A stretch of DNA of 64,000 nt, taken from NCBI RefSeq assembly GCF_006345805.1, contig NC_043016.1:26350001-26414000 (forward strand), given 5' to 3'. Position numbers and translations under genes: made by a program. Every line of letters begins with the position of its first letter. The stretch's first letter is position 1. The DNA comes from Octopus sinensis. Taxonomy: Eukaryota. This document shows positions 39,920 to 40,887 of this stretch, piece after piece. The notes under the pieces were generated by a model. It saw only the letters and a list, made by a program, of their open reading frames with translations. It had not been told where the DNA came from and did not search any database.

Positions 39920-40150
39920 TATCTTTTACTTGTTTCAGTCATGTGACTGTGGCCATGCTGGGGCACCGCCTTGAAGAATTTCTAATCGAATGAATCAAAC
40001 CTAGTACTTCTTTTCAGGCCTGTTACTTATTCTATCGGTCTCTTTTTCTGAACTGCTAAGTTACGGAAACATAAACACAGTAAAACCGATTTGAAGCAGT
40101 GGTGGTGGTGGTGGGACAAAAACAGACACAAACATACGTACATATATACG
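39920..40150 (-). mobile_element. SINE family A, 3' half
   Basis: TTTTACTTGTTTCAGTCAT...GGCCATGCTGGGGCACCGCC tail. Confidence 0.75.
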
Positions 40151-40546
40151 TCCCTCTTCTCTCTCTCTTCCTTCTTTTCTCTCTTCTCTGTCACTTGACT
40201 GCTGGCCAAAATCTGCCTTTCGGCCTCTGACCAGCGCCGTGATAACATCGTTCCTCGTTCGCCGCTAAGGCAATTCGCCGCTAAGGCAATTTTTCCAAAA
40301 TACGCCAGCCAGACCTGTTTGCACTGTTATTAGTCGTAAGACACTTGCTGTTTCTACCGTTATTGCTTTTGTATTCCACGTTTTTGTATTTCATTATTGC
40401 TTTTTGTTTTTTATATTCGTGTGGCACCGTCCTTTTTGCTGTCTTTGTGTTCGTATGCATTCGATCCTTCTTCCAGGAAATCTACGCTCCTAGCTTAGTT
40501 TTTCTAATGCTCGTTGCTTAGTTTTTCCTGGAGGGCTGGCCGGTTC

Positions 40547-40609
40547 TAGTAATCTCAAGATTAATCAGCCGAAATTACTACGATGATCCGGTTCTTGACT
40601 GAAGACTGA
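40547..40609 (+). ncRNA. Candidate non-circularly permuted hammerhead ribozyme
   Basis: UAGUAA-UC-UCAAGA...UCAG(CC)-GAAA-UUACUA...UCUUGA-CUGAAGA-CUGA: stem III 7 bp, stem I 6 bp, stem II 4 bp; core complete. Confidence 0.65.
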
Positions 40610-40887
40610 GGGCTTCAAATGTCCTGTCTGTGTTTGTTGTATCGTCTTCTAAGTTCTTATGCGTTCTTGTCTCAGTTTGTATTTTTCTACATATCATAAT
40701 ATATATTTATATATATATGTAAATGTATGTGTATTTTTTCAATGTTTACAAATAACGCGGAAAAAATAAATAAATAGTTACCAAGGTAGCAAAAATTCAC
40801 ACAAGTACCAAGGATGTAACAGCTTACTTATAAAGGTAGAAATTCCAGGTTTTGGTGAAATGATTTTATATAGGATAGATAAATAAA

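What the first reader, a model, noticed from the sequence alone, without database searches (positions are those of the whole stretch)
40150..40700. Intact non-circularly permuted hammerhead in a second, unrelated family
Seen at 40547-40609 (+): UAGUAAU/AUUACUA (stem III, 7 bp), C17, UCAAGA/UCUUGA (stem I, 6 bp), UCAG/CUGA (stem II, with two extra C before GAAA), and unmutated CUGAAGA and GAAA, in strand order A-C-B. The 2.8-6.8 kb units have the same order and similar linker lengths with entirely different stem sequences, which amounts to cross-family covariation. They also share the context: pyrimidine-rich body, motif ~80-110 nt before a (TA)n tract. Standard type I/II/III descriptors would miss it. 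Inference: a class of non-coding retroelements processed by a rearranged ribozyme. I recall rearranged hammerheads being reported elsewhere, so novelty needs a literature check.
Basis: partly seen in the sequence, partly recalled or inferred. Interest (0 to 1): 0.88.

Follow-up and report, generated by a model that had tools for sequence, protein, structure and literature searches.

The report
Four-strand hammerhead of Naiad retroelements
A common animal repeat ends in a self-cutting hammerhead-type RNA whose parts come in a scrambled order, with one helix strand moved away from the catalytic core, and the same layout sits in the tails of Naiad jumping genes, a group reported to lack the usual hammerhead; cutting itself is untested.

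Summary
The core words, stems I and III and the non-circular order at 40547-40605 are real. That order is type SGC of Eckert et al. 2023, so it is known. CUGAAGA is thus unlinked from stem II, a break Eckert's six-order scheme assumes away. It is the only such hit in the window; 300 shuffles never match its stem total. Read by eye in published consensus ends, 9 of 53 Naiad Penelope-like elements (six families, four phyla) show this split form with different sequences, and 6 nematode Naiads show type CSG, although Naiads are reported to lack canonical hammerheads. Best reading: a Naiad-type end-processing ribozyme on a non-coding or 5'-truncated element. Not shown: cleavage, expression, a Naiad parent for this family, monomer versus dimer. 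I did not find it in print (nine searches).

The parts
40150..40699 (+). Repeat unit, no ORF of 120 aa or more; U-rich flanks around the motif; 5' boundary approximate (abuts a SINE-like repeat)
   Evidence: 3153, 1781 and 1129 contigs of runs X1, X2, X4 lay on it, most under 95% alike; single copy in the window
40534..40539 (+). Proposed 5' strand of stem II (GGCUGG), G10.1 at 40534, detached from A9
   Evidence: 6 pairs (1 G-U) with 40565-70; kept in loose-end consensi of X2, X4, X13, no variant among the 40 of 55 rows shown
40540..40546 (+). Strand y of the fourth helix (equivalent of the stem I-II interaction helix)
   Evidence: pairs with 40585-91, one U-U mismatch at 40544; T40544>A in 0.93, 0.96, 0.96, 0.81 of depth in the four runs restores it
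40547..40553 (+). Stem III strand ending in U16.1 (block S)
   Evidence: 7 WC pairs with 40574-80
40554..40554 (+). C17; predicted cleavage 3' of this base
   Evidence: by analogy with the hammerhead core; not tested
40555..40560 (+). Stem I strand (block S)
   Evidence: 6 WC pairs with 40593-98
40561..40564 (+). 4-nt linker from stem I to stem II
   Evidence: type SGC has about 3 nt here
40565..40580 (+). Block G: 3' strand of stem II (40565-70), GAAA (40571-74), stem III strand (40574-80)
   Evidence: relatives vary at 40577, 40579
40585..40591 (+). Strand x of the fourth helix
40593..40605 (+). Stem I partner strand and CUGAAGA core; N7 reads G in related subfamilies
   Evidence: loose ends behind 40602
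40606..40617 (+).
40700..40722 (+). (TA)n tract, probable insertion target
3229..3305 (+). Second family, copy 1, same architecture, decayed (AAAA for GAAA)
4630..4706 (+). Second family, copy 2, decayed (G8 to A, G17)
5413..5489 (+). Second family, copy 3, decayed (G17, stem I mismatches)
6125..6190 (+). Second family, copy 4, decayed (stem I strand deleted)

Best explanation
A hammerhead ribozyme built from four separate core strands, in the order: stem II 5' strand, y, stem III, C17, stem I, linker, stem II 3' strand, GAAA, stem III, linker, x, stem I partner, CUGANGA. It is a circular permutation of the non-circular SGC/CSG wiring, opened between A9 and G10.1. Stems I, II and III rebuild the normal core (G12 base, G8 2'-OH acid: established chemistry, inferred here); helix y/x ties the far ends of stems I and II as the interaction helix does in type SGC. 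It sits at the 3' end of a Naiad-type Penelope-like repeat that inserts in (TA)n and would cut read-through or tandem transcripts after C40554, as pseudo-LTR hammerheads are proposed to do in other Penelope-like elements. Shown: the pairings, their rarity, family-level support for y/x, and the same layout with other sequences in Naiad consensi (by eye). Inferred: catalysis, expression, mobilisation by a Naiad enzyme, fold in cis (about 55:45 over a dimer).
For: Only strict hit on both strands of the window; 300 dinucleotide shuffles (both strands) gave 8 loose hits, 2 with y/x of 5 or more, none with I+II+III of 19 (best 17). Loci chosen for having all core words: 0 of 120 and 0 of 28 pass; 1 weak AT-rich hit in 123. 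Stem II -8.3 against -2.0 kcal/mol. T40544>A restores a 7-bp y/x in most relatives; N7 varies; A40577>G keeps a pair (U-G, or C-G with T40550>C); subfamilies change the four bases after A9 (unphased). By eye, 9 of 53 Naiad consensus ends have the split form with stem II pairs GGCCCA/UGGGCC (ctenophore), GGCC/GGCC (Clytia), GGCUCC/GGAGCC (Acropora), GGGGA/UCCCC (cubozoan), GGCCCC/GGGGCC (acanthocephalan), GACACC/GGUGUC (Octopus), each followed within 0-2 nt by a y/x helix of 5-15 bp, all with G10.1-C11.1; 6 nematode Naiads are type CSG with the same y/x helix of 9-16 bp. Craig et al. report no canonical hammerhead in Naiads, unexplained 'core' and 'half core' strings, and (TA)n targets. An extra base at the A9/stem II joint is usual in Penelope-like hammerheads, so this joint is tolerant.
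Against: No cleavage or RNA-end data. The descriptor was written after seeing the motif. The Naiad comparison is by eye, not computed, on about 330-400 nt per element; 38 of 53 ends showed no such motif (some show twister-like or other motifs). No Naiad ORF lies next to this copy, and three words of it were absent from the Naiad supplement. The predicted minimum-energy fold hides 40531-39 in a rod with 40588-96 and is no more stable than shuffles (z -0.09; pseudoknots not modelled). A rough length estimate leaves a 25 A gap that a 0-nt linker cannot span in cis unless stem III frays; Acropora (stem III 13 bp) fits cis poorly. The ctenophore stem I is only 2 bp; one Acropora consensus has mismatches in stems I and II. 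In the second family both stem II readings fit about equally. A shifted stem with the post-A9 tail is possible here (4 bp), in the acanthocephalan (8 bp) and ctenophore (4 bp) elements.
Confidence: 0.68

Rival explanations
1. Plain type-SGC hammerhead: stem II is 40565-68/40606-09 with two unpaired C before GAAA; the upstream strand is a competitor that keeps the ribozyme off.
For: The 4 WC pairs exist; C40606>T keeps a U-G pair; a shifted stem is also possible in the acanthocephalan and ctenophore Naiads and an adjacent 4-bp stem with one insert in the second family.
Against: Weak helix, lacks G10.1-C11.1, needs a 2-nt insert in the core; impossible in Acropora, Octopus (2 bp at most), cubozoan and Clytia Naiads; relatives change 40606-09 (loose ends); 24 of 120 controls form such a stem.
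Confidence: 0.14
2. Same strands, but active only as a dimer or between two tandem copies: the stem III hairpin loop of one copy (blocks S and G) docks on the base of another copy, which supplies stem II 5' strand, stem I partner and CUGANGA held together by y/x. This is a variant of the best explanation, not an alternative to the split core.
For: Short linkers against long helices (Acropora); Penelope-like hammerheads often act as dimers; the second family is tandem; Eckert et al. note the same geometric puzzle for type SGC.
Against: Where linkers are shortest, y/x is long enough to run back along stems II and III (15-16 bp against 16-19 layers in two nematode and the ctenophore elements, by hand); stem III is strong, unlike dimer-dependent hammerheads.
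Confidence: 0.3
3. A conserved but non-catalytic structure (protein-binding or priming signal of the element) descended from a hammerhead, or one that needs the element's protein to cleave.
For: An Anolis Penelope-like hammerhead cleaved only with its protein, was not needed for insertion in vitro, and showed no RNA-seq ends at the site; the monomer fold looks inactive.
Against: All 11 core bases and an H17 (C or A) are kept in every intact example while stems change; only N7 varies.
Confidence: 0.13
4. Chance arrangement of short words in repeat DNA.
For: Post hoc descriptor; family copies in the window are decayed.
Against: two unrelated families in one window and six Naiad families share the layout.
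Confidence: 0.03

Closest known systems
Type-SGC hammerhead ribozymes (HRIMA-1 and variants), Eckert, Friedrich, Weinberg and Weinberg 2023, PMC10085705
   Same: S-G-C order, full core, 3-4 nt linker from stem I to stem II, a helix tying the other strands of stems I and II.
   Different: There CUGAnGA is assumed to run straight into stem II (block C indivisible) and the examples came from a search next to metatranscriptome hairpin ribozymes; here the stem II strand lies upstream of block S, and the host is a genomic animal repeat.
Type-CSG hammerheads (CSG-1, CSG-2), same paper
   Same: Same cyclic wiring and interaction helix; six nematode Naiad consensi have this form (by eye).
   Different: Block C intact and first; the window's motif is opened at A9/G10.1 instead.
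Naiad Penelope-like elements and their 'HHR_core' / 'HHR_half_core' labels, Craig et al. 2021, PMC8557442
   Same: (TA)n target, position near the 3' end, same architecture in 9 of 53 ends seen; Naiad_Obim/Ovul share the CGGAU/AUCCG word of y/x.
   Different: The paper drew no structure and concluded canonical hammerheads are absent; the window's family is not one of its consensi and shows no ORF.
Type I and minimal hammerheads of Penelope-like pseudo-LTRs and animal retrozymes (PMC4209133; bioRxiv 10.64898/2026.07.22.740005)
   Same: Role and place proposed; three such type I motifs lie in this window beside (TA)n.
   Different: Circular type I order with weak stem III; here non-circular with strong stem III.
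Pseudoknot-containing (PK) hammerhead, PMC11300833
   Same: Helix II function partly supplied by a remote strand.
   Different: A9 still runs into G10.1-C11.1 and the order is circular; connectivity is pistol-like.

Membership tests
Hammerhead ribozyme | Core CUGANGA, GAAA, U16.1-A15.1, H17 | tested here: met
Hammerhead ribozyme | Stems I, II, III around the core | tested here: met
   6, 6 and 7 bp with the upstream stem II strand
Hammerhead ribozyme | Self-cleavage after N17 | not testable with these tools
   contigs only; no RNA ends can be seen
Types I, II, III (circular permutations; Rfam models) | C-G-S cyclic order | tested here: not met
   order is S-G-C; no Rfam ribozyme hit
Type-SGC hammerhead | Block order S, G, C | tested here: met
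Type-SGC hammerhead | Stem II strand directly 3' of CUGAnGA | tested here: inconclusive
   only a 4-bp stem needing a 2-nt insert, variable in relatives; a stronger upstream partner exists
Type-SGC hammerhead | Helix joining the free ends of stems I and II | tested here: met
   present as 40540-46/40585-91, but attached to the relocated strand
Naiad Penelope-like element | ORF with N-terminal GIY-YIG, CxC linker and RT | tested here: not met
   no ORF of 120 aa or more overlaps the 550-nt unit; it can be at most a truncated or non-autonomous partner
Naiad Penelope-like element | (TA)n insertion site | tested here: met
   shared with other clades, so not diagnostic
Naiad Penelope-like element | Sequence homology to a Naiad 3' end | tested here: inconclusive
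   three words absent from the supplement (line breaks can hide words); architecture and one short y/x word shared; no alignment could be run
Non-LTR retrozyme | Tandem monomers with a hammerhead, expressed as circular RNA | tested here: inconclusive
   second family is tandem, this copy is single; circular RNA not testable

The most novel reading that the evidence does not exclude
Naiad retroelements across at least five animal phyla carry the reverse-wired hammerhead, and in ctenophores, cnidarians, acanthocephalans and cephalopods it has a connectivity outside the six published orders: the catalytic CUGANGA strand is not linked to stem II, so the core is assembled from four strands in a cage closed by a fourth helix. 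This would supply the ribozyme said to be missing from Naiads and make non-circular hammerheads abundant in animal genomes.
Probability: 0.6. Interest if true: 0.9.

Novelty: new variant of a known kind. Interest (0 to 1): 0.8.

Why it matters
Non-circular hammerheads were published only in 2023, with the working assumption that CUGAnGA and its stem II strand cannot be separated and that six orders exhaust the possibilities. A natural form broken at that joint would widen the fold space of the best-studied ribozyme and give a compact new scaffold. It also answers a stated puzzle: Naiads, among the most abundant Penelope-like elements of invertebrates, were reported to lack canonical hammerheads, which was used to suggest that the ribozyme is dispensable. 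If Naiads instead keep rewired hammerheads (or twisters), self-cleavage looks like a general need of these elements. One truncation experiment separates the models.

Tried and rejected
No whole genome is held, so no genome-wide descriptor scan. Rfam: only microsatellite-driven miRNA-type matches. The repeat finder was swamped by microsatellites. No RNA holder listed among the sequencing runs; X13 is only guessed to be RNA and contigs show no ends, so expression and cleavage are neither supported nor opposed; summed depth peaks over 40560-619 but is no copy number. Metagenome scan with this family's words: 3 of 3 hits are one chance bacterial sequence without stems. Viral scans for coral-type and nematode-type layouts: 0 hits; the loose viral and prokaryote scans gave only chance word matches, used as controls. 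So no tool-held locus shows the motif beside a Naiad ORF. My first idea, an interaction helix between 40584-89 and the tail 40610-17, was dropped once y/x was seen. Ends of Euprymna and Darwinula Naiads hold core words that I could not fit cleanly and were counted as negatives. No passage on a G10.1 metal site was found; that point is recalled only. Supplements of the two bioRxiv preprints are closed; the alignments in the Eckert supplement were only word-searched, so eukaryotic members listed by accession alone would be missed.

Full report
Observation. A search of all six block orders on both strands gave three type I hits (29352, 44835, 55111), three hits in this order (40554 strong; 5399 and 53987 weak, with many G-U pairs) and one weak hit in another order. 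Rfam has no ribozyme match in the window. The window is microsatellite-rich animal DNA; that it looks octopus-like is my recall of its short repeat and was not tested. No genome is held.

What is already in print. Eckert et al. 2023 (PMC10085705; I read the outline, the first part, sections 7 and 13-16, most of the discussion, word passages, and word-searched the supplement) name this order type SGC, showed cleavage for five examples, and describe a 3-nt linker from stem I to stem II and a fourth helix tying the other strands of stems I and II. They assume that CUGAnGA and its adjacent stem strands form an indivisible block, which gives six orders. Their supplement has no hit for Octopus, Acropora, Eukaryota, Metazoa or nematode. 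So the order alone is not new.

Stem II is elsewhere. Directly after it, 40540-46 pairs with 40585-91, the strand just before the stem I partner: this is the fourth helix of type SGC, now attached to the moved strand. A descriptor for this layout hits once in the window; in 300 shuffles of both strands it gave 8 loose hits, 2 with the fourth helix, none reaching the 19 pairs in stems I-III (best 17). The descriptor was written after seeing the motif. As harder controls, loci picked for holding the core words at the right spacing passed in 0 of 120 and 0 of 28 cases, and 1 weak AT-rich hit came from 123 others; an adjacent stem of 4 bp with up to two inserts on each side arose in 24 of 120.

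The family. Twenty of 24 listed runs, 11 studies and four organism labels hold part of the unit (none holds half its words). On four runs laid at 80% likeness, 3153, 1781, 1129 and 61 contigs matched, most under 95% alike: a diverged multi-copy family. Of 55 variant places 40 were shown. T40544>A, at 0.81-0.96 of depth, repairs the one mismatch of the fourth helix. A40577>G (0.66-0.93) keeps a pair as U-G, or as C-G where T40550>C occurs (0.01-0.02 in three runs, 0.55 in X13, and in loose ends); stem III is then about 5 bp in many relatives, since T40579>G breaks an outer pair. No shown variant lies in the core, in stem I or in either strand of the new stem II; loose ends show N7 as G and other bases at 40606-09. 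The second family in the window (units at 2814-6803) has the same layout in consensus, but all four motif-bearing copies are decayed and they fit both stem II readings about equally.

The Naiad link. Craig et al. 2021 (PMC8557442; passages, metadata sheet and consensus ends seen) state that Naiads lack canonical hammerheads, prefer (TA)n, and list unexplained 'core' and 'half core' strings. I read by eye the last 330-400 nt of 53 of their 54 consensi (Cmel not seen). Nine show the split layout: Bfor, 3_Chem, Amil, Aacu, Anas, 2_Movir, Plae, Obim, Ovul, that is six independent families in Ctenophora, Cnidaria, Acanthocephala and Mollusca. In each the strand before GAAA pairs with an upstream strand starting with G (4-6 bp, all different in sequence), followed within 0-2 nt by a fourth helix of 5-15 bp; stem III is 5-13 bp, stem I 4-6 bp (2 bp in Bfor), N17 is A or C. 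Aacu has one mismatch each in stems I and II. Six nematode consensi (1, 2, 3_Nbra, Hcon, Hpol, Asuum) are clean type CSG with the same fourth helix. SGC, CSG and the split form are one cyclic wiring opened at three places. The other 38 ends showed no such motif in the part seen. These pairings were not computed, because supplement sequence cannot be handed to the tools, and no collection scan found the motif beside a Naiad ORF.

How it likely works. Stems I-III rebuild the hammerhead core; G12 as base and the G8 2'-OH as acid are established for the class (PMC11300833, parts 1-2 of 6 read). A9 would pair with G12 and stack on G10.1-C11.1 without a backbone link; this joint already tolerates an extra base in Penelope-like hammerheads (PMC4209133, passages), and G10.1 is kept in every example (its role in metal binding is recalled, not found). 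Cleavage after C40554 would cut read-through or tandem transcripts about 145 nt before the element's end, setting the 5' end of the next unit. Geometry is open: a rough estimate leaves 25 A to span for this copy, which fraying of stem III to the family's 5 bp would ease; long fourth helices go with the shortest linkers in Hcon, Hpol and Bfor, which fits a fold-back in cis; Acropora fits a dimer better. The predicted monomer fold hides the stem II strand, so a switch or protein help may be needed, as for an Anolis element (PMC11167929, passages).

Novelty. Searches found no paper placing non-circular hammerheads in Naiads or animal repeats, nor a natural break at A9/G10.1; two 2026 preprints were checked by word passages only, and the library lacks most subscription papers. 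Earlier notes of this scan mention rearranged hammerheads and twisters in other Penelope-like elements; they are unchecked, came after I had formed this reading, and none describes the split stem II in the lines shown. Verdict: a new variant of a known kind, with a plausible answer to the missing Naiad ribozyme; catalysis untested. Interest 0.8.

Noticed in passing
window 29352 (-), 44835 (-), 55111 (+) (N17 positions): Three type I hammerheads with a mismatch at the base of stem II, each close to a (TA)n tract: probable pseudo-LTR ends of ordinary Penelope-like elements; the 44835 unit has a partial direct repeat at 45168-45381.
   Followed up: partly
window 40888-41136: About 250-nt foldback (89% self-complementary) with a CUGACGA word near its centre, 190 nt downstream of the element; MITE-like or an inverted element end.
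   Followed up: no
window 2814-6803: Five or six head-to-tail units of about 700 nt separated by (TA)n, with another repeat inserted at about 3470-4130; second family with the split hammerhead, all copies decayed.
   Followed up: partly
window 39920-40110 and about ten other places: Dispersed SINE-like repeat on both strands.
   Followed up: no
window 16266-19640, 23291-24239, 50581-51904, 60320-60760: Broken endonuclease and reverse-transcriptase frames of LINE-type elements (judged by eye).
   Followed up: no
PMC8557442 supplement S5, ends of Naiad-1_Movir, Mgal, Bpla, Mphi, Scon, Mmer: Twister-like words at the place where other Naiads have the rewired hammerhead (label recalled, not tested).
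   Followed up: no
PMC8557442 supplement S5, ends of CGi, Sglo, Olur, Tgra, Pmar, 1/2_Skow, 1/2_Pfla: A third conserved 3' motif with a central 8-nt palindrome shared by oyster-like bivalve and hemichordate Naiads; not identified; a candidate unknown ribozyme.
   Followed up: no
PMC8557442 supplement, near part 46: A canonical type I hammerhead in a Chlamys consensus uses nearly the same stem II strands as the window's proposed split stem II.
   Followed up: no
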